Positions 881 to 32,000 of a stretch of 32,000 nt of DNA are shown here, piece by piece. Source of the stretch: Geobacter metallireducens GS-15 (GTDB lineage: Bacteria > Desulfobacterota > Desulfuromonadia > Geobacterales > Geobacteraceae). The stretch is taken from positions 2,610,001 through 2,642,000 of the forward strand of contig NC_007517.1 in assembly GCF_000012925.1 (NCBI RefSeq), written 5' to 3'. Under the pieces are notes generated by a model, which saw only the letters and a program-made list of their open reading frames with translations, made no database searches and was not told the DNA's origin. A program made the translations under genes and the position numbers. Position 1 is the first letter of the stretch, and each line of letters opens with the position of its first letter.

Positions 881-1264
881 TTAGCCGATTCGTAGCAATT
901 CCCTTGCCACGGCAAGGATTTTGCCGGCCTGAATCGGTTTCGTGAGATAGTCGTTGGCCCCGAGGGCAAGGCCGCGCTGGCGGTCCTCGGCAGCCCCCTC
1001 GGTGGTAATGATCACGACAGGGATGTGCCTCAGGGACGGATCGTTGCGGACAAGGCTCACGAGCTTCAGGCCATCCATGATCGGCATATTGATATCGGTA
1101 AATATCAAGTCAAAACTATCCCCTCCCAGCTTTTTCAGGGCATCAACGCCGTCGGTCGCCTCCACCAGCGCAACGCCAGGGAGCCGCCGCAGCGTGAAGG
1201 AGATAAGCTGCCGCATGGTGGGCGAGTCTTCTACGACAAGTATCCTCTTATCGGACATAGTCAT
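881..1264 (-). CDS. cheY: CheY-like single-domain response regulator (last che gene of the operon)
   Basis: Receiver motifs are present: ILVVEDS, FTDINMPIMDG, VVIITTEG, LTKP. The track ORF starts at TTG 1279. I prefer ATG 1264 or 1258, which sit downstream of a GGAG. The stop is TAA at 881-883. Confidence 0.9.
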   Translation of the reverse strand: MTMSDKRILVVEDSPTMRQLISFTLRRLPGVALVEATDGVDALKKLGGDSFDLIFTDINMPIMDGLKLVSLVRNDPSLRHIPVVIITTEGAAEDRQRGLALGANDYLTKPIQAGKILAVARELLRIG

Positions 1265-1283: not shown

Positions 1284-2117
1284 CTACTTCGTCAGGAGAT
1301 TGATGAATCCCTGCATGGTGGAGCGCTTGCGCTCCGAATCCGAGTAAAGCCTGGAACTGAATATGGCGGTTGCCGCATGGCCGGCAAGGAGTGTGAACAG
1401 TTCATAGTCCACCGGCACAAAGGCTTTTTTCTGGATCAGGAGCTTGTAAATGACGATGACTCCGATCACTTGATCCTTGATCTTGAGGGGTATGCAGACC
1501 ATGGGATTCGAGAGGTCTCGCACGTATCCCGCCGGATCCTCGAGGAAGTGGCTCTCGCCGGTAGCGGCGATGGCCCCGATGGTCCCCTCGCCGGGCCGCA
1601 CCTTCGGCACATCATCAAGGGAAATGCCCTCGGCGGCAACGGCGCCCAGCAGGCCGGCCTTCTCGTCGATGAGCATGACGGCGAATTCCTCGGCCCCGAT
1701 CAGGTTGATGATGATCTCGGTGATGACCTTGAGAACGTCATCAAAATCGAGAATGGAGTGGAGTTGGTAGCTGGCTATGTAGAGGTTTGCCAGATTGTTG
1801 TTTTCCTCTTCGATTTCCACATAGCGGGTGGCGAAATCATTGTTCTCAGCCTCAATCTGCCTGATGCGGCCGAGAATCTCGTCCTTCTCCCGCTCCAACT
1901 CCTCGATGCGGGCGGCGAGAAGCCGGTTTTCCTCGACAAGGGAAGCCGGAGCCCCTCCCTTGCGCTGGTGTTCCTCCAGCTGAAAAATCCGATATCGAAG
2001 CCGCTCGTTCTCCTTGAGGAGATCCTGGGTAAATTCCGCGCCCTTCTTGAAGAGCTGGAGGAATTCGTCGGCCCGCACATGCATCCCTTTTTCATCACTC
2101 TTGTCATCCATCGACAT
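1284..2117 (-). CDS. Coiled-coil plus GAF domain protein
   Basis: The N-terminal ~110 aa are heptad-rich (LKENERLRYRIFQLEE, IEELEREKDEILGRIRQIEAENN, IEEENNNLANLY). The C-terminal ~160 aa look GAF-like (ITEIIINLIGAEEFAVMLIDE...GEGTIGAIAATGES...VCIPLKIKDQVIGVIVIYKL). I place the start at ATG 2117 (GGGAG 6 nt upstream), because the track start at 2231 overlaps cheB. Confidence 0.8.
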   Translation of the reverse strand: MSMDDKSDEKGMHVRADEFLQLFKKGAEFTQDLLKENERLRYRIFQLEEHQRKGGAPASLVEENRLLAARIEELEREKDEILGRIRQIEAENNDFATRYVEIEEENNNLANLYIASYQLHSILDFDDVLKVITEIIINLIGAEEFAVMLIDEKAGLLGAVAAEGISLDDVPKVRPGEGTIGAIAATGESHFLEDPAGYVRDLSNPMVCIPLKIKDQVIGVIVIYKLLIQKKAFVPVDYELFTLLAGHAATAIFSSRLYSDSERKRSTMQGFINLLTK

Positions 2118-2181: not shown

Positions 2182-3264
2182 CTAATCAAGGTCGGTGGCC
2201 ACTCCGCAACGCATACGGATTTCCCGCGCAATCAGATCGAGGGGTACCACCTTATCAACCACACCCGTGGCGATGGCCTCCCTCGGCATTCCAAACACCA
2301 CTGCCGAACTCTCGGCTTCGGCAAGGGCTTGTCCTCCCGCGCCTTTGATGGCCCGCACCCCCCGGCTCCCATCGTTCCCCATGCCCGTAAGCACTACGCC
2401 AAGGGTCCGCGGTCCAAAGACTTCCGCACAGGAGGCAAGCATGGCGTCGACCGATGGGATGTAGCGATCCTCGGGAGATGGTTTGCGCACCCTCACCACC
2501 ACTGAGCCGGAACTCTTCTCGAACACCATGTTGTGGCCGCCGGGAGCAATCAGCACCCGCCCCGGCCACACCGTATCGCCGTCGGCCGCTTCCTTGACCT
2601 CGAAAACGGAGAGGCGGTTGAGGCGCTCCGCGAAGGTTCGCGTGAAACCGGCGGGCATGTGTTGAGAAATAACGATCGCCAGGGGAAGGGCCTCGCGGAA
2701 CGAAGAGAGAATCCGCTGGATGGCGGGGGGGCCGCCGGTGGAAGAACCGATGGCCACCACATCGAGACGGCACGGCACCACACGTCGCGGCTCCGCTTCC
2801 GCCTTTTTCGGGGCGACAGGAGGGGGAGCCAAAACCTCCACTTTCTCACGGCGGATGATCTCCTTCATGTTCAGGGAAAAGACGCCCCGCACCTTCTGCT
2901 GGATATCGTCGGTTATGGTAAGGAGTTCCTCGGAAATCCCCTGGCTCGGCTTGGCGACGAAATCGACCGCTCCCAGTTCAAGAGCCTTGAAGACCTTCTC
3001 GTCATCACTCTTGGCGCTGATCACAATGACCGGTGTCGGACAGTACCCCATGATGATCCGCAGGAGAGTGAAGCCGTCCATCTTGGGCATCTCGAGGTCA
3101 AGGGTCACGAGGTCGGGCTTCAGATCAATGACTTTTCTGATCCCCTCCTCGCCGTCGTTGGCGTATCCCGCCACCACCACCTCGGGCATGCTTTCAAGCA
3201 TTTTGATAATGGCCCGCCGGTTGAAGGCGGAATCGTCGATGACGACAACCCTGATTTTTCTCAT
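2182..3264 (-). CDS. cheB: Protein-glutamate methylesterase/glutaminase CheB (receiver + methylesterase)
   Basis: N-terminal receiver motifs [18 protein letters not shown]. Catalytic Ser/His/Asp contexts are present: [25 protein letters not shown]. The ATG at 3264 overlaps the cheR stop as ATGA. Confidence 0.95.
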
Positions 3265-4136
3265 AATCCACCCCCTGCCCCGCCCGGGAAGGGCTTCTGG
3301 TAGACCATGTCGTTCTTGAAGTGTTTAAGGGTGAAGGCCGTGGAGATATTCATGAGCGATTCGGAGTGACCCAGGAGGAGATATCCCCCTTCGTGCAGGG
3401 TCCGGTAAAAGGAGTCAATCACCTTCCGCCGTGCCAGCTGGTCGAAGTAGATGATGACGTTGCGGCAGTATATCACGTCCATGCAGCCCAGCAGCGCGAT
3501 GCGGTTCGCGTCGAGGAGGTTCAGGTGGCTTATGGTGACCAGTTCCCTCACCTTGTCGTTCACCCGGTACATTCCGTCCTGTTCGGTGAAGTAGCGACGG
3601 ATGTAGCTGTCGTCGGTCACCCGGAAGGAAGACTTGCCGTAGAGACCCTTGCGGGCCTGCTGAATCACCCGCTGACAGATGTCGGTGCCGATAATTTCCA
3701 CCTGCCAGCCGGCGAAACCGCCCATTTCCAGAAGGAGCATGGCGATTGTGTAAGGCTCTTCACCGCTGGAGCAGCCGGCGCTCCAGATGCGGAGCGTCCG
3801 GTCGCCGCTCTTCATTTTCATCGCGCGCAGAGCGGGAATGATCTCGTCGGTAAACGCCTTGAGCTGGAACGCCTCGCGGAAGAAGTAGGTCTCGTTGGTG
3901 GTGAGGAGATCCATGATATCCGAGAGTTCCTGGTCCCTGTTCCGGTTATACTTGAGGAAGTGGTAGTAGTCCCTGAACCCTGCGAAATGGTGAAACTGCA
4001 GACGCTTGGAGAGGCGCTTTTCCAGCAGGTAGGTTGCATCGCTATCAAAGTAGAGGCCACAATGATTGTAGATGAGATCCCGAATCAGGCGGAACTCCTC
4101 ATCGGATAGCGGTATTTCCGGTTCCAGGGTGAACAT
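3261..4136 (-). CDS. cheR: Chemotaxis protein methyltransferase CheR
   Basis: CheR N-terminal helical region ([25 protein letters not shown]) and SAM-binding region ([33 protein letters not shown]). ATG 4136 overlaps the upstream stop as TAATG and has GGAAGGTGG upstream. GTG 4145 is an alternative start. Confidence 0.93.
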
Positions 4137-6136
4137 TACCGCCACCTTCCGAGAAGGTCCCGGAGCTCACCCCGTACGAGTTCGTCCTGCTCGGCTTCCA
4201 GAGCCTTGCGCAGGTGCTCGGCCGCTCCCTCGCCGAGAAGATGCGCCATGGCACGGGCAGTGGCACACCGCACGTCCCAGTGGGGGTGTCGGAGAAGGCT
4301 GTCCCGGTACTCGTCAATCCAGGAGGAACCGCTGCGGGAGAGGATGTCGATGGCAGATTTCACCACCTCCTCGTCACTGCTCTCAAGGCCCCTTCTCACG
4401 AGCAGAAGTGCCCGGTCGTCCCCAAGACCGGCCAAGGCTTCGAGCGCAGTGATAAGCACGACCCCATCCGCCTTGCCCAACAGATCCTCGATGGCATCAA
4501 GCGCCCGCTCGCCGCCCATCTTGCCGAGGCTCCTGAGGGCAGCGCAGCGGACCCACGGATCTTCATCGTTGAGCGAAAGGATCAGAGAGTCCACGCTCCC
4601 CTCACCCTGCATCTCACCGAGTCCCGTAGCGGCGGCGATCCGCACATCAGGGTCCTCGTCCACCAGCGCCATGACCAGGTTCCCGAGGCATTCGGGAAGG
4701 CGCAGGCCCGCAAGAGCGGTCACAGCACTACGCCTCACAAGGGGGCTCTCATCCTTCACCAGAAGGGCAAGGCGCTCCGGATCGGCCAGAGCCGCGAATA
4801 TCCGCGCGGCATCCTGTCGGTTATCGGGGTTGGGCGACGTGGAAAGAGTCCTGGCGATGGCAGCCACCTTCTCCCGGCCGGTGGGGGCAAGACGCACAAG
4901 AGCATCCACGGCCCCCTTGCGCACGTCTTGCTCGCTGTCGTCAAGCAGCACTCGAATCTGATCCAGCAACCCGGTAAGGCCGATCTTACCTGCAGCCACC
5001 ACAGCGGCATTGCGGACCGAGTACCGGTTACTCGCCATGGCCTCGCCAAGATACGGCGCCGCACCACCAAAGCCCATTTCTCCCCACAGATAAATGATGA
5101 AGGTTTTTTCCTCATCATCGGCTTTGGAGAAAGCTGCAAGCAATGCGGCCATCCCACCCTCTCCCATAATCCGGAAACCCTGGAGACACGTGCGCCGAAG
5201 CCGCTCGTCGCGGCATCCCTCCAGAAGGGGCAGGGCCGCACGCTCATCACCGATAAGCGCCAGAATCCCCACAAGTGACTCTCTCACCTGCCGATCGGTG
5301 GTATCAAGGGATGCGATGAGATCATCCACGCACGGTTTCCCCCTGAAACCCGTGAGATGGTCATCAACCTCCCGTGCGTACACCGCGGGGAGTCTCCCCC
5401 TGAGGCGCGCCAGGGCGCAGGCCGCCGCTTCACGGACTGCCCGGACACGGTCCTGGAGCCCCTCCAGGATTACAGGTACGGCATCACGGTCTCCCACTGC
5501 GCCAAGGCACTCTATGACGGGACGCTTCAGGAGAGGATCCGCTACAAGGGGAGCAAACACCGGGATGGGAACCGGTTCCCCAATCCGGGTAAGGGCGCCG
5601 AGAACCGAAAAGCGGAACCAGACATCACCCGTTGCCAGGGCCTCAACCAGAGGCGCAACCGCGCGAGGGTCGCCGATCTTGCCGAGATTCTCCGCCGCTG
5701 CGGCAGAAACGTTGGCATCGGGATCCTGCAGTGCTTCCACGAGGGATGGGATGGATGAACGGTCGCCGATGCTGCCGAGGATGTCGGCGACAAATTTCCG
5801 TACGTCATGATCAGGGTCTTTGAGGTGGTCAAGGAGAAGCGGCACACTCCGGGATTCCAGGCGCTCCAGGGCCTCCACCGCCGAGTTCCGGAGCCCGGCG
5901 TTGTCGGAGGATGCAAGCAGGCCGATGAGCCCGTTCAGGGTTGAGTCATCAAGGGGCACGGTGAGAAGCGTGTTGACCGCCTCCTTGCGTACCCGCCAGC
6001 TCCCGTCCCCCATGGCTGAAAAAAAGAGTTCACGACTCCTGGCGAGAGGATGGCGACCCAGGCCGATGACGGCCTGTCGACGCTCCTCGTCGTCGGCACC
6101 AGTAAGTTGAGTACGTATGTGTTCAAGATCGCCCAC
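4136..6136 (-). CDS. Large HEAT-repeat (PBS-lyase HEAT-like) protein, about 666 aa
   Basis: About 18-19 iterations by eye of a ~31 aa unit of the type D.D..VR..A..AL..(I/L)G. Examples are DHDVRKFVADILGSIG, DPDVRIAAATGLGEMQG, DPWVRCAALRSLGKMGG, HWDVRCATARAMAHLLG. I saw no enzymatic motif. I prefer GTG 6136, which has AGGAG 7 nt upstream. The track start GTG 6175 lies in the loop of a hairpin. Confidence 0.85.
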   Translation of the reverse strand: MGDLEHIRTQLTGADDEERRQAVIGLGRHPLARSRELFFSAMGDGSWRVRKEAVNTLLTVPLDDSTLNGLIGLLASSDNAGLRNSAVEALERLESRSVPLLLDHLKDPDHDVRKFVADILGSIGDRSSIPSLVEALQDPDANVSAAAAENLGKIGDPRAVAPLVEALATGDVWFRFSVLGALTRIGEPVPIPVFAPLVADPLLKRPVIECLGAVGDRDAVPVILEGLQDRVRAVREAAACALARLRGRLPAVYAREVDDHLTGFRGKPCVDDLIASLDTTDRQVRESLVGILALIGDERAALPLLEGCRDERLRRTCLQGFRIMGEGGMAALLAAFSKADDEEKTFIIYLWGEMGFGGAAPYLGEAMASNRYSVRNAAVVAAGKIGLTGLLDQIRVLLDDSEQDVRKGAVDALVRLAPTGREKVAAIARTLSTSPNPDNRQDAARIFAALADPERLALLVKDESPLVRRSAVTALAGLRLPECLGNLVMALVDEDPDVRIAAATGLGEMQGEGSVDSLILSLNDEDPWVRCAALRSLGKMGGERALDAIEDLLGKADGVVLITALEALAGLGDDRALLLVRRGLESSDEEVVKSAIDILSRSGSSWIDEYRDSLLRHPHWDVRCATARAMAHLLGEGAAEHLRKALEAEQDELVRGELRDLLGRWR

Positions 6137-6166
6137 TGACGGTCTCCTTGTCGAACTGTCAGGATT

Positions 6167-6183
6167 CCCGCACACACTGCGGG
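6167..6183 (-). other. Intercistronic hairpin between cheW and the HEAT-repeat gene
   Basis: On the minus strand: CCCGCA-GTGTG-TGCGGG, a 6-bp stem with a 5-nt loop. No U-tract follows, so it is not a typical terminator. It may be a processing or stability element. Confidence 0.3.
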
Positions 6184-6201
6184 TATCCTCTTTTTCCGGA
6201 A

Positions 6202-6699
6202 TTATCGGGCGGGAGTTGCGCCCGATGCCCGTGAGAAGCCGGCGAGAGCCGATGTTTCACGGCTGTTCAGAATAGTGTCAAGATTGAGAAGCATGATGAG
6301 GCTGTCGCGGACAAGACAGACGCCGATCAGGTACTCGGTGCTGATCCCCTCGGCCACATGGGGAGGGGGCTTGATGTCATGGGCTTGGACCGTAACGACC
6401 TCGGTGACGTCGTCCACGACGAGCCCCACGAGTTGGCGGGACACGGTTACCACCAAAAGCCGTGATTCCTCCAGCGGAGCGCGTTCAGGAAGCTCGAACC
6501 GCTTGCGCAGATCCATAACCGGAATGACCGTGCCGCGAAGATTGATTACCCCTTCCACAAAGGACGGTGTCCTGGGTAGCTTCGTCAGGTGCTGAGGCTT
6601 GAGGATTTCCTTGATCCTCATGATGTCAGCGGCAAAATTCGCATCACCCAGACGGAAACAGGCAAGCTGAATTTCCTGGATGTCGGTTTCCATCATCAT
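6202..6699 (-). CDS. cheW: Chemotaxis coupling protein CheW
   Basis: A single CheW domain: LACFRLGDANFAADIMRIKEI, PSFVEGVINLRGTVIPVMDLRKRF, VGLVVDDVTEVV. AGGGGGG lies upstream of an ATGATGATG start. Confidence 0.93.
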   Translation of the reverse strand: MMMETDIQEIQLACFRLGDANFAADIMRIKEILKPQHLTKLPRTPSFVEGVINLRGTVIPVMDLRKRFELPERAPLEESRLLVVTVSRQLVGLVVDDVTEVVTVQAHDIKPPPHVAEGISTEYLIGVCLVRDSLIMLLNLDTILNSRETSALAGFSRASGATPAR

Positions 6700-6747: not shown

Positions 6748-7119
6748 TTAAGGAGAGAGGAGATCCTGAATTATCTCAATGATCTTTGCCGACTTGAACG
6801 GTTTGGTGACGTAGGCCGACGCGCCCGCCGCCATCCCTCGCGCGCAGTCCTGCTCGCTCTTCTTGGCCGTAAGCATCACGACGGGAGTGTGTGCCGTTTC
6901 GGGATTCTGCTTGATGCGCCGGCAGACCTCAAAGCCATCTATCTCCGGAAGCATGATGTCGAGGATGACCAGATCGGGCCTGGTCAAGCCGACCTGTTCA
7001 AGGGCGGCCACCCCGTCGGTGGCACCCACCACTTCATACCCCCTGGACGTGAGGAGAATGCTTTCAAGCTTGAGAAGGCTTTCCTCATCCTCGACGATCA
7101 GAATTTTTTTCTTCGTCAT
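6748..7119 (-). CDS. Stand-alone response regulator receiver protein (non-CheY-like subtype)
   Basis: Receiver motifs KILIVEDE, LVILDIMLPEIDG, PVVMLTAK, YVTKPF. ATG 7119 has AAAGGG 7 nt upstream. The track start ATG 7140 has no SD and remains an alternative. Confidence 0.88.
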   Translation of the reverse strand: MTKKKILIVEDEESLLKLESILLTSRGYEVVGATDGVAALEQVGLTRPDLVILDIMLPEIDGFEVCRRIKQNPETAHTPVVMLTAKKSEQDCARGMAAGASAYVTKPFKSAKIIEIIQDLLSP

Positions 7120-7157
7120 GTCTGGACCCTTTCGCGCCATTAAAATGGGGCACGATT

Positions 7158-7874
7158 TCAGAGCAGCAACACGTCAAGAACCTTTTCCATTGCGAGCATA
7201 ATGACGATCTTTCCGTCATGGCGTCCGATACCGGAGACAAATTCACGATCTATGCCATCGAGAACCGCAGGGGGCTGTTCCACGGTGTCTGCAGCAATCC
7301 GAACCACCTGGGTCACCTCGTCCACAAGAATACCACAGAGACCATCACCTTTCTTCACCACGATGATGCGCTCTTTCCCTCCCCCTTCTTCCCGGCACAG
7401 GCCAAGGCGCTCCCGGAGGGCGAATACGGGGATAATGATGCCGCGCAACGAGAGCACACCGGCGATGAAGGGGGGTGCATGGGGAACCTCCGTTGTCTCC
7501 CGGGGCTTGATGATCTCCTTCAGTTCCATGATGTCGATGCCGTAAATCTCGTCGGCAACCCTGAAGCAAAGAATTTCGAGGGAAGACGAAGCTTGGACCG
7601 GGAGGTCGGCATCGTCTTCAACAGGGAGAACCTCATCAACAAGGGCAGACTTCCGCCCTTCGAGGATAACGGTCAAGGGGTCGCGAACAACCGGCGGAGC
7701 AAAGCTGGCCTGGATGATCTCATCCTGGGGAAAGGACTCGTCATAGTGGCCATCATCGGTCTCCTCCAGCGGAGGAGCGGAGGGGGTAACCGGTGATTGC
7801 GCAGCCTGGGGTTCCTCGCGTCGCCCTTCGCGTTCCCTTTGGGCCTTTTTCCTGATTTCGGCTATATCCATCAT
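7158..7874 (-). CDS. CheW-domain protein with ~95 aa acidic/Pro-rich N-terminal extension
   Basis: C-terminal CheW domain: ILCFRVADEIYGIDIMELKEI, PPFIAGVLSLRGIIIPVFALRERL, CGILVDEVTQVV. I place the start at ATGATG 7874, with AAGGA upstream. The track start at 8120 overlaps the upstream ATPase gene. Confidence 0.85.
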   Translation of the reverse strand: MMDIAEIRKKAQREREGRREEPQAAQSPVTPSAPPLEETDDGHYDESFPQDEIIQASFAPPVVRDPLTVILEGRKSALVDEVLPVEDDADLPVQASSSLEILCFRVADEIYGIDIMELKEIIKPRETTEVPHAPPFIAGVLSLRGIIIPVFALRERLGLCREEGGGKERIIVVKKGDGLCGILVDEVTQVVRIAADTVEQPPAVLDGIDREFVSGIGRHDGKIVIMLAMEKVLDVLLL

Positions 7875-7893
7875 GGCAGTCGATCCTTTGACC

Positions 7894-8697
7894 TCAGTAG
7901 AGGCTCGCTTCGTCACGCAACTCTTCCACCAGCGATGCATCGATCCAGGCAGAGTCCTTCCCGAACCCCACCAACAGCGCATTGGTCGCCAGGATGTTGA
8001 TCTTGCGCGGCACCCCGCCCGACAACTCGTAAATCCTCCGGATGGCATCCGGAGAGAAGAGCCCCTGGGGTCCGCCGGCCACCTCCACCCGGAAGTCCAC
8101 ATACTCGAGGGTTTCCTCAAGGCTCAGGGGCTGGAGGTGGTAGTGCATGGCAATCCGCTGCCGCAGGGCTTCATGGGCCGGCTCGGACAGTATCTGCCGC
8201 AGCTCCGGCTGCCCCATGAGAATAACACTCATGAGGTTGCGGTCGTCCAGCTGAAAGTTGGTCAGGAGCCTGATCTCGTCGAACACCTCCTGGTCGGGGA
8301 TCAGCTGGGCCTCGTCAATGATGATGACCGGGCAGCGCTTCTCCCCCTCGAGCCGGTAAACCGCCTCGGTGAGCTGCCGCAGGAGTTCGTCCTTGGCCGC
8401 GGCCGGCTCAGCGATGCCGAGACTGCGGGCCACCGTGCGGAGGAATTCCACGGCCGAGAGTCGCGGGTTGACGATGAAACAGAAACAGCCGTCATTCCCC
8501 ACGGCGTCCATGAGCGCCCGGGAGATGGTGGTCTTGCCGCAGCCGATGTCGCCAGTGAGGAGCGCCAGTTCCCGCTCCTCCACCGCATACTGGAGCCGTG
8601 CCAGGGCTTCCCGGTGTCCCCGCGACAGAAAGAGGTAGCGCGGGTCCGGGGTCTTCGAGAACGGCTTTTCGGTCAGACCGTAGAACTCCCTGTACAT
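7894..8697 (-). CDS. ExeA/GspA/MshM-like AAA+ ATPase (AAA_22-type)
   Basis: N-terminus MYREFYGLTEKPFSKTPDPRYLF is typical of ExeA-like proteins. Walker A is GDIGCGKTT and Walker B is VIIIDEAQ. GQPEL and GGVPRKIN motifs are also present. The ATG at 8697 directly abuts the cheA stop (TAG|ATG, zero gap). Confidence 0.85.
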   Translation of the reverse strand: MYREFYGLTEKPFSKTPDPRYLFLSRGHREALARLQYAVEERELALLTGDIGCGKTTISRALMDAVGNDGCFCFIVNPRLSAVEFLRTVARSLGIAEPAAAKDELLRQLTEAVYRLEGEKRCPVIIIDEAQLIPDQEVFDEIRLLTNFQLDDRNLMSVILMGQPELRQILSEPAHEALRQRIAMHYHLQPLSLEETLEYVDFRVEVAGGPQGLFSPDAIRRIYELSGGVPRKINILATNALLVGFGKDSAWIDASLVEELRDEASLY

Positions 8698-10770
8698 CTA
8701 CCCTCCGCTCCGGAACGCCTCGCCGATGATCCCCCCCACGTCGAGCACGAGGATCGTCCGCTGGTCCCCCAGGTCCGCCGCTCCGGTGATCCCCCGGTAC
8801 CCCTTGAACATGTCCCCCAGGGATTTGATGACAATATCCTGCTGCCCCATGAGATCGTCGACAATGACCCCGAGCCGTTTCTCCGCCACCCCCACCACCA
8901 CCACGTAGAACTCGGCGGAATCCGGTTTTGTGCGCGGGACGCCGAAAAAGCGCTCCAGCCGCACGAGCGGCAGGGTCGTTTGCCTGAGCTGGTAGACCTC
9001 CTTGCGCTCCACGGTATCGATGTCATTCTCGGTGACGATGATCGTTTCAAGCACCGACGTGATCGGGAGGGCGTAGGTGCGCCCGGCGGTGGAAACCAGC
9101 AGCGCCTTGATGATGGCCAGGGTGATGGGAAGGGTGATGATGACCTTGCTCCCCTGGCCGAAGATGCTCTCGATGTCCACCATCCCCGAGACGGCGGCGA
9201 TGTTGTTTTTCACCACATCCATGCCGACGCCGCGGCCCGACAGCTCGCTCACCTTGTCGGCGGTGGAAAAGCCGGGGAGAAAGATGAAATCGAGGGCCTC
9301 CCGGTCGGATACCCCTTCCAAGGTCTTGATGAGCCCCTTTTCCAGGGCCTTCTTCTTCACCTTTTCGATATTGAACCCGTGCCCGTCGTCCGACACTTCG
9401 ATGACGACGTGGTTTCCCTTCTGGTAGGAGGAGAGACGGATGGTTCCCCGCTCGGGCTTGCCGGCGGCCACCCGCTCTTCCGTGGTCTCCAGTCCATGGT
9501 CGATGGCGTTGCGGATGATGTGAACCATGGGGTCGGCGATATCCTCGATGATGAGCTTGTCCAGCTCAGTGTCCGCGCCAAAGGTCTTGAGGTCGACCTT
9601 TTTCCCCTGTTCCCGGGAGACCTTCCGGACAATGCGGGCCATCTTCTCGAAAAGTTGCCCAACCGGGATCATCCGGATCTCCATGACCCCCTTCTGCAGT
9701 TCCGTGAGCTTGCGGTCGAGCCCCTTGGCCGCCTTGCCCAGCTCGATGGCCAGGGACGAGAACCCTTCGAGTCTCATGCGTGTCGCCAGCATCGAGATGA
9801 TGGAATGGGAGAGGACCAGCTCGCCCACGATGTTCATGAGATCGTCCAGCTTGCCGATGTCGACCCGCACCGTCCGGCTCATGCTCTTGGCGGTCATGTC
9901 GTCGCCCTGGCCGACAGGAGCGGAGACCTCTGCCGGAGCCGAAGTCGGAACCGACGCCTGCGCTGTAGCGGGGATTGCCACGGCAACACCGGCCGCGATG
10001 GCCGAGGGTGGAGAGGCAGCCGCACCGATCCGGGTGACCTCGACATTATCCCGGTCAATGAGTCCGGTAACATCATCAAGCGCGAGGTCGGTGCCGTAGA
10101 GGATCTCGAAGTCGATCATCGACTCGGGAGTGGCACTGGCACTGGGGAGAGTACTCACCACCTCTCCAGACTTCTTCAGGACTTCCGTGATCTCCCCCAG
10201 ATCCTGATCGAAGGACATGAGGTTGAAGGAGGCATGGATGGAGTAAATGGTCCGCCCCTTCTTCACATTCTCCAGCAGCCGGTGTTCCTCGTATTCGGTG
10301 AGGGAGTTGAGGACCTTCTCCGGCAGGCCGAGCTTCTGGAGGGGTGACTCGCCGCCACTCTCCTGGGCTGTGGCGCAGTCATTGAGCCGCTGAATCGCGT
10401 CGGCAATGGCGGAAGAGAAGTTTTCTCCGGTGCCGAGCCCCCGCACCACGGAACCGAGAAGTTCCATGGCATCGAAGAGGATGTTCATGGTGGCATTGGT
10501 GAGGGGTATTTTGCCGAGGCGAAGTGAATCGAGAAGGTTTTCCAGGTTATGGGAGAGCTGCTGGATGTCGGCGAAACCGAACATGCCGGCGAGCCCCTTG
10601 AGGGAGTGGGCGCCGCGGAAAATGGCATTGAGCAGGTCCGGATCACACTCCCCGCTGTCGGCGCAGTCGCCGAGGGTTCCCAAGTCGGTGCTCAGTCGAT
10701 CGACAATCTCTTCGGCTTCGGCCAGGAAGTCTTCCACGGCCCTGCCGGACGTATCATTTGAATTTGCCAT
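8698..10770 (-). CDS. cheA: Chemotaxis histidine kinase CheA (P1 HPt, dimerisation, HATPase, CheW-like P5; no fused receiver)
   Basis: HPt motif FRGAHSLKGLAGMFG. Dimerisation region RVDIGKLDDLMNIVGELV. ATPase boxes HIIRNAIDHG, VSDDGHGF, GRGVGMDVV. The C-terminal P5 region has ADLGDQRTILVLDV. Confidence 0.95.
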   Translation of the reverse strand: MANSNDTSGRAVEDFLAEAEEIVDRLSTDLGTLGDCADSGECDPDLLNAIFRGAHSLKGLAGMFGFADIQQLSHNLENLLDSLRLGKIPLTNATMNILFDAMELLGSVVRGLGTGENFSSAIADAIQRLNDCATAQESGGESPLQKLGLPEKVLNSLTEYEEHRLLENVKKGRTIYSIHASFNLMSFDQDLGEITEVLKKSGEVVSTLPSASATPESMIDFEILYGTDLALDDVTGLIDRDNVEVTRIGAAASPPSAIAAGVAVAIPATAQASVPTSAPAEVSAPVGQGDDMTAKSMSRTVRVDIGKLDDLMNIVGELVLSHSIISMLATRMRLEGFSSLAIELGKAAKGLDRKLTELQKGVMEIRMIPVGQLFEKMARIVRKVSREQGKKVDLKTFGADTELDKLIIEDIADPMVHIIRNAIDHGLETTEERVAAGKPERGTIRLSSYQKGNHVVIEVSDDGHGFNIEKVKKKALEKGLIKTLEGVSDREALDFIFLPGFSTADKVSELSGRGVGMDVVKNNIAAVSGMVDIESIFGQGSKVIITLPITLAIIKALLVSTAGRTYALPITSVLETIIVTENDIDTVERKEVYQLRQTTLPLVRLERFFGVPRTKPDSAEFYVVVVGVAEKRLGVIVDDLMGQQDIVIKSLGDMFKGYRGITGAADLGDQRTILVLDVGGIIGEAFRSGG

Positions 10771-10779
10771 GGATAACCC

Positions 10780-11145
10780 TCAGGCCGTGTACTGTTTGAT
10801 CAACTCCTGCAAACGCGCCGGATCGAACGGCTTCACCAGATATTCGTTGGCACCGAGAGCGAGCCCCTTTTCCCGGTCACGCTCGCTCCCTTCGGTGGAT
10901 ATGATGAAGAGTGGGATATGGCGGTAATTTTCACTTCCACGGACAAAGCTCACAAGCTCAAGCCCGTTGATGTCGGGCATATTGATATCGGTTATGATCA
11001 GGTCAACGGGTTCCCGAGGCAGAAGCCGAAGGGCTTCGAACCCGCTCGCCGCCTCGGAAACCAGATATCCGCCGAGGGACTCGATGGTCGCCACCAGAAG
11101 GGACCGCATGGTCGACGAGTCTTCCGCTATAAGGATTTTCTTCAC
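10780..11145 (-). CDS. cheY: CheY-like single-domain response regulator
   Basis: Receiver motifs ILIAEDS, ITDINMPDINGLE, FIISTEG, LVKPF. The GTG start at 11145 overlaps the upstream stop as GTGA. Confidence 0.92.
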   Translation of the reverse strand: MKKILIAEDSSTMRSLLVATIESLGGYLVSEAASGFEALRLLPREPVDLIITDINMPDINGLELVSFVRGSENYRHIPLFIISTEGSERDREKGLALGANEYLVKPFDPARLQELIKQYTA

Positions 11146-12326
11146 GTTACACTCCGAAGTTTACTTTCCAGCAGCGCTTTTTCCATGACCAGCCCGGCTT
11201 GGGACAGAAAAATCTCCAGGGCCTCCGTCCCGACGATTGGCCTGCGCTCGGCCTGATTGTCACCGTAGAGGACAGCGATCACCTCTCCACCACTTACGAT
11301 CGGCCCGAGGAAAACCTCGTGGGGAATCTCCACGCCGATACGGCCGAACAGATAACGATTCCATTCATTCGCTTCGGGACGGACCACTGCCGGGTGTTTC
11401 GCTTCAATAACCCCGCTGAACAGCGATGGCTCTCCTCTCGGTATGCGGAGCGACCTGATCCGCTCGTCGGCACCGCCTCCGCGGTCGTCGAGGCCAAACT
11501 GACCGAGCCCCACAACCTCTTCCTTCAGTACCCTGAAGATTACCGCCCGGTCCATGAACTCCGCGGCAAGCCGCAGGACCAGCAGGGTAATGCCGCATCC
11601 CAGCTCGGGATTGTGCAGCTCTTCGAGCATCCCCCGCAACAGGGTCATCCGGTCAGCGTGGCTGTAACCCTCCTCACCGGTCTTTGCCAGCTCCTCTCCC
11701 ATTTCGAGACGAAGCTCCTCACCGATGTTGATGTGCCCCGGCGGCGGCGCAGGCACCACGGTACGCCCTTCAGGAGGCTGGGGAACCCGGAGGGGCTCCT
11801 CATCCCGGGGAATATCCCTTCTGCGGCGGTCCTGGTTCGCCTCCGCCATCAGGAGCCGGGGATTGAGCCCCTGTTCCAGCATGAACTGGAGGGGATCCAT
11901 CCTGATGGTGCCGGCAGTGGCCACGTTGTCCTGGAGAATGAATTCGAATGTCCCTTCCACCCAGGCAAAGAGCGTATAGACTACCCGCTCCACCTGCTCC
12001 CGGGCCACATCTTCGACAACGGTGGCAGGCACGCCGAATCGTCGCACCAGGATCGATCCGAGCCGTTCCTGGAATCCCTCGCTTTCCTGGCATGCAAGGG
12101 CTGACCGCAGGGTTGCGAGATCGAGCTTCCCCTTGCGGATCAGGACCTCGCCGATATTCTCCAGGAGGGTGCTGGAGGTGGCCTGGATCACCTGACCGAG
12201 ACGGAAGACGATGGTCCCTTCACGCCCCCGGCTCTTGATCCGCAGAATCCCCGACTTTGATGAAAGGCTGATGATCTGTAAGATCTCACCCAGCCCCAGA
12301 TCTTCAAGACTCCCGACAAGGCTCAT
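11142..12326 (-). CDS. DUF4388 (PATAN-like) N-terminal domain protein with C-terminal GAF-like domain
   Basis: The N-terminus SLVGSLEDLGLGEILQIISLSSKSGILRIKSRGREGTIVFRLGQV matches my memory of the DUF4388/PATAN signature. A Pro/Arg-rich linker follows. The C-terminal ~150 aa look GAF-like (ITLLVLRLAAEFMDRAVIFRV...GGEVIAVLYGDN). This is the first gene of the che-like operon. Confidence 0.75.
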   Translation of the reverse strand: MSLVGSLEDLGLGEILQIISLSSKSGILRIKSRGREGTIVFRLGQVIQATSSTLLENIGEVLIRKGKLDLATLRSALACQESEGFQERLGSILVRRFGVPATVVEDVAREQVERVVYTLFAWVEGTFEFILQDNVATAGTIRMDPLQFMLEQGLNPRLLMAEANQDRRRRDIPRDEEPLRVPQPPEGRTVVPAPPPGHINIGEELRLEMGEELAKTGEEGYSHADRMTLLRGMLEELHNPELGCGITLLVLRLAAEFMDRAVIFRVLKEEVVGLGQFGLDDRGGGADERIRSLRIPRGEPSLFSGVIEAKHPAVVRPEANEWNRYLFGRIGVEIPHEVFLGPIVSGGEVIAVLYGDNQAERRPIVGTEALEIFLSQAGLVMEKALLESKLRSVT

Positions 12327-30676: not shown

Positions 30677-31317
30677 TATTCGATCCTTTTTCTGATTTTT
30701 GCCGGCACACCGTACGCAAGCGCGTTGTCCGGAATATCGCCCACAACAACCGAACCGGCGCCTATGAACGAGCCTGCCCCGATACGAACCCTGTCTATAA
30801 TCGATGATCCTATGCCGATCCAGGCACCCTCGCCCACAGCCACGCGTCCTGCAAGGCGGACGCCGGGGCAGATGTGGGCACCGTCTTCGATTGTGCACTC
30901 ATGATCCACACTGGCTGAAGTGTTGATGATGACGTTCGCCCCGACGTGAACGCCAGGGTTGATGACAGCGCCAGCCGCAACAACCGTTCCCTCTCCGATC
31001 ACCACATCGCGGGCGACAACTGCAGAGGGGTGCACCGCCGTCACAAGCTCAAGTCCCTGTGCTCTGAGATATTCCGCCACCTTGAGCCGTGCAGGGCAAT
31101 TCCCGAAGGCAACGATCGCATGGCGTACCCCCTGCCCGCAGAGCATAGCGAGTGAGTCTCTGCCGCTGAAGACCGGGAGACCAAAGAACTCTTCCCCATT
31201 TCTCCCTTCGGTGACATCGTCCAGAAACCCAACAATATCATACTCGCCCCGCAGTCTGACAATATCCGCCACGACCATCGCATGACCCGAGGCTCCCCAG
31301 ACAACAAGCTTTTTCAC
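30676..31317 (-). CDS. NeuD/PglD-type hexapeptide-repeat sugar N/O-acetyltransferase
   Basis: KKLVVWGASGHAMVVADIV (NeuD-type N-terminal Rossmann-like domain), then a left-handed beta-helix with repeats (IGEGTVV, INPGVHVGANVII, IEDGAHICPGVRL, VGEGAWIGIGSSI). I prefer GTG 31317, with GGGGG upstream. ATG 31338 and GTG 31347 are alternatives. Confidence 0.85.
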   Translation of the reverse strand: MKKLVVWGASGHAMVVADIVRLRGEYDIVGFLDDVTEGRNGEEFFGLPVFSGRDSLAMLCGQGVRHAIVAFGNCPARLKVAEYLRAQGLELVTAVHPSAVVARDVVIGEGTVVAAGAVINPGVHVGANVIINTSASVDHECTIEDGAHICPGVRLAGRVAVGEGAWIGIGSSIIDRVRIGAGSFIGAGSVVVGDIPDNALAYGVPAKIRKRIE

Positions 31318-31352
31318 ATTGTTACCCCCAGGCCACATTCTACACACCTACG

Positions 31353-32000
31353 TCAGTAGCGAAATATATAGCGCTTCCAGAAGGGAGTTTTTAACAAACA
31401 ATAAAGCCAATCGGATTTTCGCTTGGTAAACAATGTATTCCAAGGTTTAGTCGAAGTTGCGTAATGGATAATAGCTGGGCTTTCAAAAGCTTCTAACAAC
31501 TCTTTTTCGCTGTAGATAGTGTCAAATCCAAGATTCTTTCTATATCCCTTAAACAGGTAATTAAACAAATTACCCTTTACTTTCAATTTCATTTTATGTC
31601 TGTCTTTAAACAAATTATACATATATGTGCAAAAGCAATAACGTAACGGGATATAATCAATTTTGTCTTTTAAGACTATATTCAATATATCCTGCTCTGG
31701 CTGAACAACAATAGAACTCATTCCCTGCAATGCAATCATAATATCGTCATATATATTATCTTCTCTCATTTTTTTGAGATTATAGACAAGAATCCCTGCT
31801 CCTATGCCGTTTTTAAGGATGGATTTAATTTCCGCGGGCATATTCATATTTTCATAATATTTATCAAGTTTTCCACACACCCTAACACCGGCAATATAAT
31901 TTTCTTCACTTAACATAAAGAAGACATCAGATATATCATCCTTGAATACAACATCAACGTCAGACCATATTATTTTGTCATACTGAGGAAATTCAAGCAT
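31353..32000 (-). CDS. Glycosyltransferase family 8 (LPS/glycan alpha-glycosyltransferase-like), 5' end probably beyond window
   Basis: DxD context IIWSDVDVVF, GILVYNL, EQDILN and IIHYATSTKPW are GT8 hallmarks. GT8 enzymes normally have ~80-100 aa before the DxD, so the ATG at 32000 is probably internal. The gene is strikingly AT-rich. Confidence 0.8.
   Translation of the reverse strand: MLEFPQYDKIIWSDVDVVFKDDISDVFFMLSEENYIAGVRVCGKLDKYYENMNMPAEIKSILKNGIGAGILVYNLKKMREDNIYDDIMIALQGMSSIVVQPEQDILNIVLKDKIDYIPLRYCFCTYMYNLFKDRHKMKLKVKGNLFNYLFKGYRKNLGFDTIYSEKELLEAFESPAIIHYATSTKPWNTLFTKRKSDWLYCLLKTPFWKRYIFRY

What the first reader, a model, noticed from the sequence alone, without database searches (positions are those of the whole stretch)
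4136..6136. Giant HEAT-repeat protein inside the che operon (Cpc7-like candidate output)
A ~666 aa protein made almost entirely of ~31 aa PBS-lyase-type HEAT repeats (about 18-19 by eye). It lies between cheW and cheR and overlaps cheR as TAATG. The one precedent I know is the Myxococcus xanthus Che7 system, where CheY7 is reported to act through the HEAT-repeat protein Cpc7. The protein here looks, to my recollection, larger than Cpc7. It coexists with three receivers, so it may be a scaffold that phospho-CheY docks onto.
Basis: partly seen in the sequence, partly recalled or inferred. Interest (0 to 1): 0.55.

Follow-up and report, generated by a model that had tools for sequence, protein, structure and literature searches.

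The report
Conserved HEAT-repeat partner of CheR/CheY
The gene is real and encodes a 666-residue protein made of 21 HEAT repeats. It is the standard, functionally uncharacterised accessory subunit of a chemotaxis-like signalling operon shared by Geobacter relatives and myxobacteria, and it most likely acts as a docking platform tied to the methyltransferase CheR and one CheY.

Summary
On the minus strand, 6136..4136 encodes a 666-aa all-HEAT protein with a 31-residue period. The gene lies between cheW and cheR, its stop overlaps the cheR start as TAATG, and the operon has three stand-alone receivers.

It is not unusual. The protein is 97% identical to an annotated Geobacter hydrogenophilus protein. 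Its signature GDxSWRVRK occurs in at least 588 species genomes. In all 80+ loci inspected, from Desulfuromonadales and Myxococcota, it sits directly upstream of cheR-cheB. These loci are the known 'group beta' / M. xanthus Che8 / G. sulfurreducens Esn type of che cluster.

Three results are new here:
- HEAT->cheR->cheB are the only junctions that overlap consistently (83% and 95% of loci).
- The concave face of repeats 2-5 is invariant across the family, while the middle repeats vary freely.
- HEAT divergence covaries specifically with CheR and with the cheA-adjacent CheY, not with CheA, CheW or the other receivers.

The best reading is a scaffold that links a phospho-CheY to the adaptation enzymes. 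The Cpc7 analogy is plausible because Che7 is the sister system, but I could not obtain the Cpc7 sequence, so it is untested. This is a new member of a known kind, of moderate interest.

The parts
4136..6136 (-). HEAT-repeat protein gene: 666 aa, 21 PBS-lyase-type HEAT repeats, GTG start, TAA stop
   Evidence: ORF; Pfam HEAT_2 8e-86; 31-aa period; AF2 pLDDT 94.2, all helical; 97% identical to a G. hydrogenophilus 666-aa protein.
6144..6149 (-). Shine-Dalgarno-like AAGGAG, 7 nt upstream of the GTG start at 6136
   Evidence: sequence read directly.
5675..6046 (-). Repeats 2-5 (aa 31-154), forming a family-invariant concave groove: W47 R48 K51 / A80 G81 N84 E88 / D111 K114 F115 D118 / N142 A146 E149
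   Evidence: Positions 18, 19, 22, 23 and 26 of the 31-aa unit are the variable, concave binding positions in alphaRep proteins (PMC3754942). Here they are 0.71-0.83 conserved across 77 sequences that share 30-51% identity.
4424..4603 (-). Repeats 17-18 (aa 512-571): a second, weaker conserved concave patch (W528, A532, R535, G558, I562, E566)
   Evidence: mean conservation of concave positions 0.53-0.59.
5351..5386 (-). Extra helix (aa 251-262) inserted between repeats 8 and 9
4134..4138 (-). TAATG junction where the HEAT stop overlaps the cheR start by one base
   Evidence: The overlap is conserved: 66 of 84 loci overlap by 1 or 4 nt, and 83% overlap in the independent count.
3261..4136 (-). 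cheR (CheR_N plus CheR SAM-binding domain, 291 aa, no TPR extension)
   Evidence: Its distances covary with HEAT (partial r 0.41-0.62).
2182..3264 (-). cheB (receiver plus methylesterase); overlaps cheR by 4 nt
   Evidence: (the cheR->cheB junction overlaps in 95% of loci).
10780..11145 (-). CheY1, the single-domain receiver next to cheA and the best candidate receiver partner of the HEAT protein
   Evidence: Response_reg; partial r 0.41-0.51 with HEAT, permutation p = 0.001.
8698..10770 (-). cheA (Hpt, dimerisation, HATPase_c and CheW-like domains)
7894..8697 (-). AAA_22 ATPase abutting cheA (counterpart of GSU2221)
7158..7874 (-). CheW with an N-terminal extension (counterpart of GSU2220/EsnB); start taken as ATG 7874
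6748..7140 (-). Second single-domain receiver (RR2)
6202..6699 (-). Second CheW, directly upstream of the HEAT gene (65-nt spacer)
1284..2117 (-). Coiled-coil plus GAF protein downstream of cheB
881..1264 (-). Third single-domain receiver (RR3), the last gene of the cluster
11142..12326 (-). PatA_N (DUF4388) protein with a GAF-like C-terminal half, the first gene of the cluster

Best explanation
The protein is the HEAT-repeat subunit of the MCP-less 'group beta' / Che8 / Esn-type chemosensory operon of Desulfuromonadales and Myxococcota. It is a 21-repeat alpha-solenoid with no catalytic domain, and it most likely works as a docking platform.

Shown here:
- It is made in fixed proportion with CheR and CheB, because the three genes are translationally coupled.
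- It carries a conserved binding groove on the concave face of repeats 2-5. The middle repeats act as a variable spacer.

Inferred:
- The groove, together with a second patch on repeats 17-18, binds the cheA-adjacent CheY (CheY1). This would probably depend on phosphorylation, as reported for CheY7-Cpc7.
- It also binds CheR.
- Kinase output would therefore be coupled to the receptor-methylation (adaptation) branch, or to a still unknown downstream target.

The confidence given (0.5) is for the specific CheY1/CheR docking model. That the protein is an integral scaffold subunit of this pathway I hold at about 0.85.
For: 1. All-HEAT, high-confidence solenoid with no other domain.
2. An orthologous family with lengths in a few discrete classes (about 514-527, about 600-613 and 660-690 aa, with occasional 716-746-aa forms). 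Members align end to end at 31-51% identity and carry the signature GDxSWRVRK in at least 588 species genomes.
3. In 86 loci from two phyla, HEAT is always immediately followed by cheR-cheB.
4. HEAT->cheR overlaps in 83% of loci and cheR->cheB in 95%, while the other junctions are typically 16-60 nt.
5. The concave positions of repeats 2-5 are invariant or nearly so across the family. The same positions in repeats 9-16 and 19-21 are free to vary. These are the binding positions of alphaRep proteins.
6. After removing the common signal, HEAT distances covary with CheR (partial r 0.41-0.62) and CheY1 (0.41-0.51), both with permutation p = 0.001. They do not covary with CheA, either CheW or RR3. 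The result holds with polynomial and rank backgrounds. The known partners CheA-CheW score similarly, which serves as a positive control.
7. In most relatives a receiver protein (Zn-ribbon RR / RR250 family) is encoded directly upstream of HEAT and often overlaps it.
8. Precedents exist: CheY7 binds the HEAT protein Cpc7, and a haloarchaeal HEAT_PBS protein is required for CheY-P action.
Against: - No binding has been tested. Covariation by partial Mantel tests is known to be anticonservative when sequences share a phylogeny.
- Gene overlap shows co-expression, not contact.
- The receiver gene that precedes HEAT in most relatives is absent from this window. Yet the groove residues are intact, so that receiver cannot be the groove's only ligand.
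- In the G. sulfurreducens Tn-seq table of genes with at least 50% electrode growth defect, only the CheA, ATPase and CheW genes of this cluster are listed. The HEAT orthologue therefore did not score as strongly, although its actual value was not readable.
- Sequence relatedness to Cpc7 was not tested.
Confidence: 0.5

Rival explanations
1. Pure Cpc7-type output effector. A phosphorylated CheY binds the HEAT protein, which then acts on a target outside the operon. The position next to cheR is only operon history.
For: The Cpc7/CheY7 precedent in the sister Che7 system. Covariation with CheY1. A receiver gene directly upstream of HEAT in most lineages.
Against: Covariation with CheR is as strong or stronger. 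The HEAT->cheR overlap is maintained across two phyla while other junctions drift. No candidate downstream target is encoded nearby.
Confidence: 0.22
2. Adaptation-module tether only. The solenoid recruits or regulates CheR and CheB at receptors that lack a tethering pentapeptide. It would play in trans the role that TPR extensions play in other myxobacterial CheRs, with no receiver input.
For: The coupled HEAT-cheR-cheB trio. Covariation with CheR, and in one subset with CheB. CheR here is short with no extra domain. In M. xanthus the CheRs of Frz, Che3, Che4 and Che6 carry TPR domains, whereas CheR7 and CheR8 do not (Table 3 of PMC3945109).
Against: Covariation with CheY1 is unexplained. Receiver genes adjoin HEAT in most relatives. 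The only experimental precedent for a che-cluster HEAT protein is CheY binding.
Confidence: 0.2
3. Array-assembly or localisation scaffold. The protein organises the cytoplasmic CheA-CheW-receptor lattice together with the AAA_22 ATPase.
For: Large HEAT solenoids are typical assembly scaffolds. The operon contains an unusual ATPase and two CheWs.
Against: HEAT does not covary with CheA, either CheW or the ATPase, which form their own covarying group. Myxococcota clusters keep HEAT but lack the ATPase.
Confidence: 0.08
4. A bilin or tetrapyrrole lyase-type enzyme related to CpcE/CpcF/NblB.
For: The repeats are of the PBS-lyase type. The best NCBIfam matches are NblB and CpcE, and PDB sequence hits include CpcE/F.
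Against: All scores are far below the family cut-offs (129.6 vs 300; 107.7 vs 330). The similarity is repeat-level only. There is no phycobiliprotein context, and the protein always sits inside a che operon.
Confidence: 0.03

Closest known systems
HEAT-repeat gene of the 'group beta' che clusters (Tran et al. 2008, PMC2577667), i.e. the G. sulfurreducens Esn cluster around GSU2212-GSU2224 and M. xanthus Che8 (MXAN_4751-4759)
   Same: Same operon type: several cheY, cheA, two cheW, cheR and cheB, with no mcp. The CheA-ATPase-CheW order matches GSU2222-2220. The protein is 97% identical to the G. hydrogenophilus orthologue, and HEAT lies upstream of cheR in every relative.
   Different: The window's lineage lacks the receiver gene that precedes HEAT in most relatives. 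In G. sulfurreducens that position appears to be GSU2217, cheY40H-3. The published descriptions do not discuss the HEAT gene: 'HEAT' occurs 0 times in the main text of PMC2577667. The numbering GSU2216 and MXAN_4754 for the orthologues is my inference from gaps in published tables and was not verified.
Cpc7 of the Myxococcus xanthus Che7 system (Darnell et al. 2014)
   Same: A HEAT/PBS-lyase-type repeat protein encoded in a chemosensory cluster and reported to bind the cluster's single-domain CheY. Che7 and Che8 group together phylogenetically.
   Different: Cpc7 is described with 27 helices, against 43 here. Che7 carries its own MCP, while this cluster has none. Sequence similarity was not tested because the Cpc7 sequence was not obtainable. 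Cpc7's position just upstream of cheR7 is from my memory only.
Haloarchaeal HEAT_PBS protein OE2401F (Schlesner et al. 2009, PMC2666748)
   Same: A HEAT_PBS-only protein in a che gene region. It is required for CheY-P to act and it interacts with Che proteins.
   Different: It is archaeal. It works with CheF (DUF439) and the archaellum and binds CheD and CheF. Neither partner exists here.
alphaRep / MTH187-type 31-residue HEAT-like repeats
   Same: The same repeat unit and consensus; these are the best PDB sequence matches. Binding is through concave-face positions 18, 19, 22, 23 and 26.
   Different: alphaReps are short designed proteins with 2 to about 10 repeats. This is a natural 21-repeat protein in which only repeats 2-5, and more weakly 17-18, have a fixed concave face.

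Membership tests
PBS-lyase-type HEAT-like repeat proteins (Pfam HEAT_2/HEAT_PBS; alphaRep archetype) | Tandem units of about 31 residues (helix-turn-helix) with the D..VR..AA.ALG consensus | tested here: met
   Pfam HEAT_2 8e-86 and HEAT_PBS 1e-29; period 31; repeats visible in register; alphaRep chains are the top PDB sequence hits.
PBS-lyase-type HEAT-like repeat proteins (Pfam HEAT_2/HEAT_PBS; alphaRep archetype) | All-alpha solenoid fold | tested here: met
   AF2 pLDDT 94.2 with 43 helices. Foldseek matches only HEAT solenoids.
Group beta / Che8 / Esn-type che cluster component | Operon with cheA, two cheW, cheR, cheB and several cheY, but no mcp | tested here: met
   Pfam on all cluster ORFs. 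No MCPsignal ORF was recognised among the window's ORFs, read by eye; only the cluster ORFs were scanned with Pfam. Definition.
Group beta / Che8 / Esn-type che cluster component | HEAT gene conserved at the same position (upstream of cheR-cheB) in Geobacteraceae and in Myxococcota | tested here: met
   86 loci; Myxococcota loci L084-L086, L089 and L090.
Group beta / Che8 / Esn-type che cluster component | Family signature at the N-terminus (DEExRR ... GDxSWRVRK) and end-to-end alignment with the family | tested here: met
Cpc7-type CheY-binding HEAT protein (M. xanthus Che7) | HEAT-only protein encoded inside a chemosensory cluster together with a single-domain CheY | tested here: met
Cpc7-type CheY-binding HEAT protein (M. 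xanthus Che7) | Detectable sequence orthology or similarity to Cpc7 beyond the generic repeat | not tested
   The Cpc7 sequence was not obtainable. The paper is not held, and the searches never returned Myxococcus.
Cpc7-type CheY-binding HEAT protein (M. xanthus Che7) | Phosphorylation-dependent binding to the cluster's CheY | not testable with these tools
   Only indirect evidence: covariation with CheY1.
Cpc7-type CheY-binding HEAT protein (M. xanthus Che7) | Che7-like cluster make-up (own MCP in the cluster) and Cpc7-like size (27 helices) | tested here: not met
   No mcp in the window, whereas Mcp7 is in che7. 43 helices against 27.
CpcE/CpcF/NblB bilin-lyase family | Score above the NCBIfam equivalog cut-off | tested here: not met
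   NblB 129.6 vs 300; CpcE 107.7 vs 330; CpcF 58.6 vs 220.
Haloarchaeal OE2401F-type HEAT_PBS chemotaxis protein | Adjacent to a CheF (DUF439) gene in an archaeal che/fla region | tested here: not met
   No such gene in the cluster. Definition.

The most novel reading that the evidence does not exclude
The HEAT protein is a phospho-CheY-gated adaptor for the methyltransferase. CheY1~P would bind the invariant groove of repeats 2-5 and change how the solenoid presents CheR (and CheB) to the cognate cytoplasmic 40H receptor. This would give a direct feedback from kinase output to adaptation. It would replace the pentapeptide tether of enteric receptors and the cis TPR domains of other myxobacterial CheRs.
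Probability: 0.2. Interest if true: 0.7.

Novelty: new member of a known kind. Interest (0 to 1): 0.4.

Why it matters
In G. sulfurreducens this operon type is needed for electrode colonisation (the Esn genes). In M. xanthus its function is still unknown (Che8). Its HEAT subunit has never been analysed. This work gives concrete handles for doing so: a defined invariant groove (W47, R48, K51, N84, K114, D118, N142, E149) and two ranked candidate partners, CheR and the cheA-adjacent CheY. It also suggests that Cpc7-type CheY-HEAT signalling could be a general feature of a whole class of chemosensory systems rather than a Myxococcus oddity. If the link to CheR is real, it would be a new way to couple output and adaptation.

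Tried and rejected
1. Cpc7 sequence. Darnell 2014 and Sharma 2018 are not held. Locus-tag searches gave nothing useful. The three homologue searches (window protein, P0253, P0179) returned Geobacteraceae, Polyangia/Kofleriaceae and uncultured deltaproteobacteria, but never Myxococcus. The 80 loci kept from the single genome scan were all Desulfuromonadales. The direct Cpc7 alignment therefore remains undone.

2. HEAT-CheR fusion. An apparent fusion protein (P0343, 808 aa) looked like a Rosetta-stone link. It sits on a contig of 2.33x coverage in which cheA is also split, and the junction alignment was uninformative. I treat it as a probable indel artefact and did not use it.

3. DNA-level repeats. 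None were found.

4. Foldseek against the PDB returned only generic large HEAT solenoids with TM below 0.5. This gives no functional lead.

5. NCBIfam has no dedicated model for the family.

6. Contrast of HEAT conservation between loci with and without the upstream receiver gene. It gave only a weak signal in the C-terminal repeats 19-21. The signal is confounded by phylogeny, and two loci were misclassified. It was not used.

7. Tn-seq value of the G. sulfurreducens orthologue. The supplementary table is truncated before that gene.

8. Bilin-lyase function was considered and rejected.
Full report
**Observation**

On the minus strand, an ORF runs from GTG 6136 to TAA 4138..4136. AAGGAG lies 7 nt upstream of the start, and the longest possible ORF starts at GTG 6175. 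The 666-aa product matches Pfam HEAT_2 (8e-86, ten stretches), HEAT and HEAT_PBS, and nothing else of substance.

A BLOSUM autocorrelation peaks at lags 31, 62, 93, 155 and 186. The repeats are visible in register when the sequence is printed 31 residues per line. There is no tandem repeat at the DNA level, so the repeats are old.

AlphaFold2 was run on a 47-sequence alignment. The model has pLDDT 94.2 and pTM 0.75 and is entirely helical. I count 43 helices, which makes 21 hairpins plus one extra helix (251-262) after repeat 8.

The neighbours are as described. CheW lies upstream (6699..6202). CheR lies downstream, and its ATG shares one base with the HEAT stop, giving TAATG. The cluster holds three single-domain receivers plus the receiver domain of CheB.

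**What the locus is**

The minus-strand operon reads, in order:
- PatA_N/DUF4388 protein
- CheY1
- CheA
- AAA_22 ATPase
- CheW with an N-terminal extension
- RR2
- CheW
- HEAT
- CheR
- CheB
- coiled-coil GAF protein
- RR3

It is flanked by der/era on one side and a multihaem c7-type cytochrome on the other. I recognised no MCP gene among the window's ORFs, read by eye; only the cluster ORFs were scanned with Pfam.

The window is about 95% identical in DNA to Geobacter hydrogenophilus DSM 13691. The HEAT protein is 97% identical to that organism's annotated 'HEAT repeat domain-containing protein'.

This is the 'group beta' che cluster of Tran et al. 2008. [quoted passage not shown] It is conserved in Geobacter, Anaeromyxobacter, Stigmatella, Plesiocystis and M. 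xanthus, and preliminary data linked it to extracellular matrix.

In G. sulfurreducens the CheA, ATPase and CheW genes of this cluster (GSU2222, GSU2221, GSU2220) are required for electrode colonisation. They work with the orphan GAF-containing 40H receptor EsnA.

In M. xanthus the MCP-less Che8 cluster has the matching order. Two unnamed genes lie between cheW8a and cheR8, and the function of Che8 is still unknown.

**How widespread and how constant**

Against 1.84 billion cluster representatives there are about 77,000 generic HEAT hits. About 75 representatives at 31-51% identity align end to end in a single stretch. Most are 660-690 aa long, and a second class of 600-613 aa lacks the last two repeats.

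All of these carry an N-terminal DEExRR ... GDxSWRVRK signature. That signature alone matched at least 588 species genomes.

I mapped the operon proteins onto 86 loci. Wherever flanking sequence was available, the HEAT gene was followed immediately by cheR and cheB. Upstream lay the second cheW or a receiver protein.

Myxococcota loci (Polyangia, Kofleriaceae and others) read CheY-CheA-CheW-CheW-RR-HEAT-CheR-CheB(-GAF-RR), with HEAT proteins of 514 to 746 aa. One complete deltaproteobacterial genome has an MCP inside the cluster, in the order CheW-MCP-ZnRR-HEAT-CheR.

The receiver encoded upstream of HEAT carries a Zn ribbon in Desulfuromonadales and is a 250-aa form in Myxococcota. The two forms are one family, 35% identical including a shared C-terminal domain. 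This receiver gene is missing from the window and its closest relatives. G. sulfurreducens lists a cheY (GSU2217) at that position.

**Evidence that bears on mechanism**

1. *Gene junctions.* In 66 of 84 loci the HEAT stop overlaps the cheR start by 1 or 4 nt, and almost all the others lie within 14 nt. An independent count over all junctions gives these results:

| Junction | Result |
|---|---|
| HEAT->cheR | 83% of loci overlap |
| cheR->cheB | 95% of loci overlap |
| cheA->ATPase | median gap 2 nt |
| all other junctions | median gaps of 6 to about 60 nt, plus an apparent 215 nt before the extended CheW, whose N-terminal extension was not in the query |

HEAT-CheR-CheB is therefore a specifically coupled trio and not just part of a compact operon.

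2. *Surface conservation.* In alphaRep proteins, which are built from the same 31-residue unit and are the best PDB sequence matches, positions 18, 19, 22, 23 and 26 lie on the concave face and form the binding surface. I scored these positions across 77 family members that share 30-51% identity:
   - In repeats 2-5 they are the most conserved residues of the protein (mean 0.71-0.83). W47, R48, K51, K114, N142 and E149 are invariant. A80, G81, N84, E88, D111, F115, D118 and A146 are at least 86% conserved.
   - In repeats 9-16 and 19-21 the same positions are variable (0.27-0.43), although the core positions are kept.
   - Repeats 17-18 form a weaker second patch.
   
   This is the pattern of a solenoid with a fixed ligand site near the N-terminus and a spacer in the middle.

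3. *Covariation.* I used pairwise protein distances across 37-57 loci and removed the signal common to the other operon proteins:
   - HEAT covaries with CheR (partial r 0.41-0.62) and CheY1 (0.41-0.51), both with permutation p = 0.001.
   - CheA, both CheWs and RR3 give about zero or negative values. RR2 is weak (0.21). In the full 57-locus set the ATPase is near zero (0.09). CheB gives 0.13-0.18 in two sets and 0.44 in the 37-locus set; GAF, present only in that set, gives 0.34.
   - The result does not change with quadratic, cubic or rank backgrounds.
   - It is not a rate artefact: CheY1 and CheR are the slowest proteins and HEAT is the fastest.
   - Among all pairs, the known partners CheA-CheW score 0.42, comparable with HEAT-CheR (0.45) and HEAT-CheY1 (0.41).
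   - Caveat: Mantel-type tests are anticonservative with shared phylogeny, so I treat this as a ranking of candidates and not as proof.

**Best explanation**

Shown:
- The protein is an all-HEAT scaffold.
- It is an obligatory, syntenic and translationally coupled companion of CheR/CheB in this operon type.
- It has a family-invariant concave groove.

Inferred:
- It docks CheR and the cheA-adjacent CheY. CheY binding would probably depend on phosphorylation, by analogy with CheY7-Cpc7 and with the haloarchaeal HEAT_PBS protein needed for CheY-P action.
- It thereby couples kinase output to the adaptation enzymes or to an unknown target.

The groove's ligand must be present in every lineage. 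That excludes the upstream Zn-ribbon receiver as its only partner, because the window lacks that gene but keeps the groove.

**Rival explanations**

- A pure output effector, on the Cpc7 model.
- A pure CheR/CheB tether. It is notable that the M. xanthus CheRs of Frz, Che3, Che4 and Che6 carry TPR domains, while CheR7 and CheR8 do not.
- An array-assembly scaffold. This is disfavoured by the lack of covariation with CheA, CheW and the ATPase, and by Myxococcota clusters that lack the ATPase.
- A bilin-lyase-type enzyme. This is rejected because the NblB and CpcE scores are far below their cut-offs and the context is wrong.

**Comparison with Cpc7**

I could not test sequence similarity to Cpc7.

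- Che7 and Che8 are sister systems. By gene order the window's protein corresponds to the Che8-type HEAT gene.
- Cpc7 is smaller (27 helices) and sits in a cluster that has its own MCP.
- From memory, cpc7 lies just upstream of cheR7. That would make it a positional paralogue. The published locus-tag tables leave exactly one unnamed gene there, but I could not verify what it is.

**Verdict**

It is ordinary in the sense that it is a widespread, already annotated component of a known cluster type, although its function is uncharacterised. The Cpc7-like reading is plausible but incomplete, because the link to CheR is at least as strong. I classify it as a new member of a known kind, with moderate interest. 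That interest rests on the defined groove and on the two ranked candidate partners.

Noticed in passing
window 7894-8697 (-): An AAA_22 ATPase gene abuts cheA with no gap. It resembles the XrtA/PEP-CTERM-associated ATPase TIGR03015 (239 bits, cut-off 324.5). Its distances covary most with CheA (partial r 0.49). The G. sulfurreducens counterpart GSU2221 had an electrode-growth defect in Tn-seq. Myxococcota versions of the cluster lack it.
   Followed up: partly
window 6137-6201 (-), hairpin at 6167-6183: The 65-nt cheW-HEAT spacer is the place where most relatives encode a receiver protein (the Zn-ribbon RR / 250-aa RR family, with a conserved C-terminal domain). This lineage has lost the gene, and a GC-rich 6-bp hairpin sits in the spacer.
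   Followed up: partly
window 11142-12326 (-): The first gene of the operon encodes a PatA_N (DUF4388) protein with a GAF-like C-terminal half. It has a weak, sub-threshold match (E = 3e-5) to an MshE-type c-di-GMP-binding motif at residues 58-102. In other Geobacteraceae the same position holds a PatA_N plus receiver protein.
   Followed up: no
window 1-about 870 (-): A multihaem c7-type cytochrome with repeated CxxCH motifs is cut by the window edge, directly downstream of the che cluster. The same neighbour, a Cytochrome_C7 polymer, is present in locus L002.
   Followed up: no
window 31001-32000: G+C drops to 0.41, against about 0.6 elsewhere. The region covers an ORF at the window edge (31353-32000, minus strand) that I did not annotate, next to sugar-modification genes identified by eye. 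It may be a horizontally acquired surface-polysaccharide gene.
   Followed up: no
window 7158-8120 (-): The first CheW has an N-terminal extension of about 100 residues. Its longest ORF overlaps the ATPase gene, and ATG 7874 is the likely start (238 aa). It is the counterpart of EsnB (GSU2220).
   Followed up: partly
L083:10001-12427: An 808-aa HEAT-CheR 'fusion' (P0343) occurs in a Myxococcota-like metagenome contig. The contig has 2.33x coverage and its cheA is split, so the fusion is probably an assembly indel and not a real fusion.
   Followed up: partly
L087:7031-9103 (CP070770.1): One complete deltaproteobacterial genome carries an MCP gene (HAMP plus MCPsignal) inside this otherwise MCP-less cluster type, between the second cheW and the Zn-ribbon receiver. 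It is a natural candidate for the cognate receptor class.
   Followed up: no
proteins P0121, P0129, P0138 and others: The representative library contains HEAT-repeat giants of 1,200-6,021 aa. They are built from the same 31-residue unit and match the query in up to 34 separate stretches. They are unrelated in architecture to the che-cluster family.
   Followed up: no
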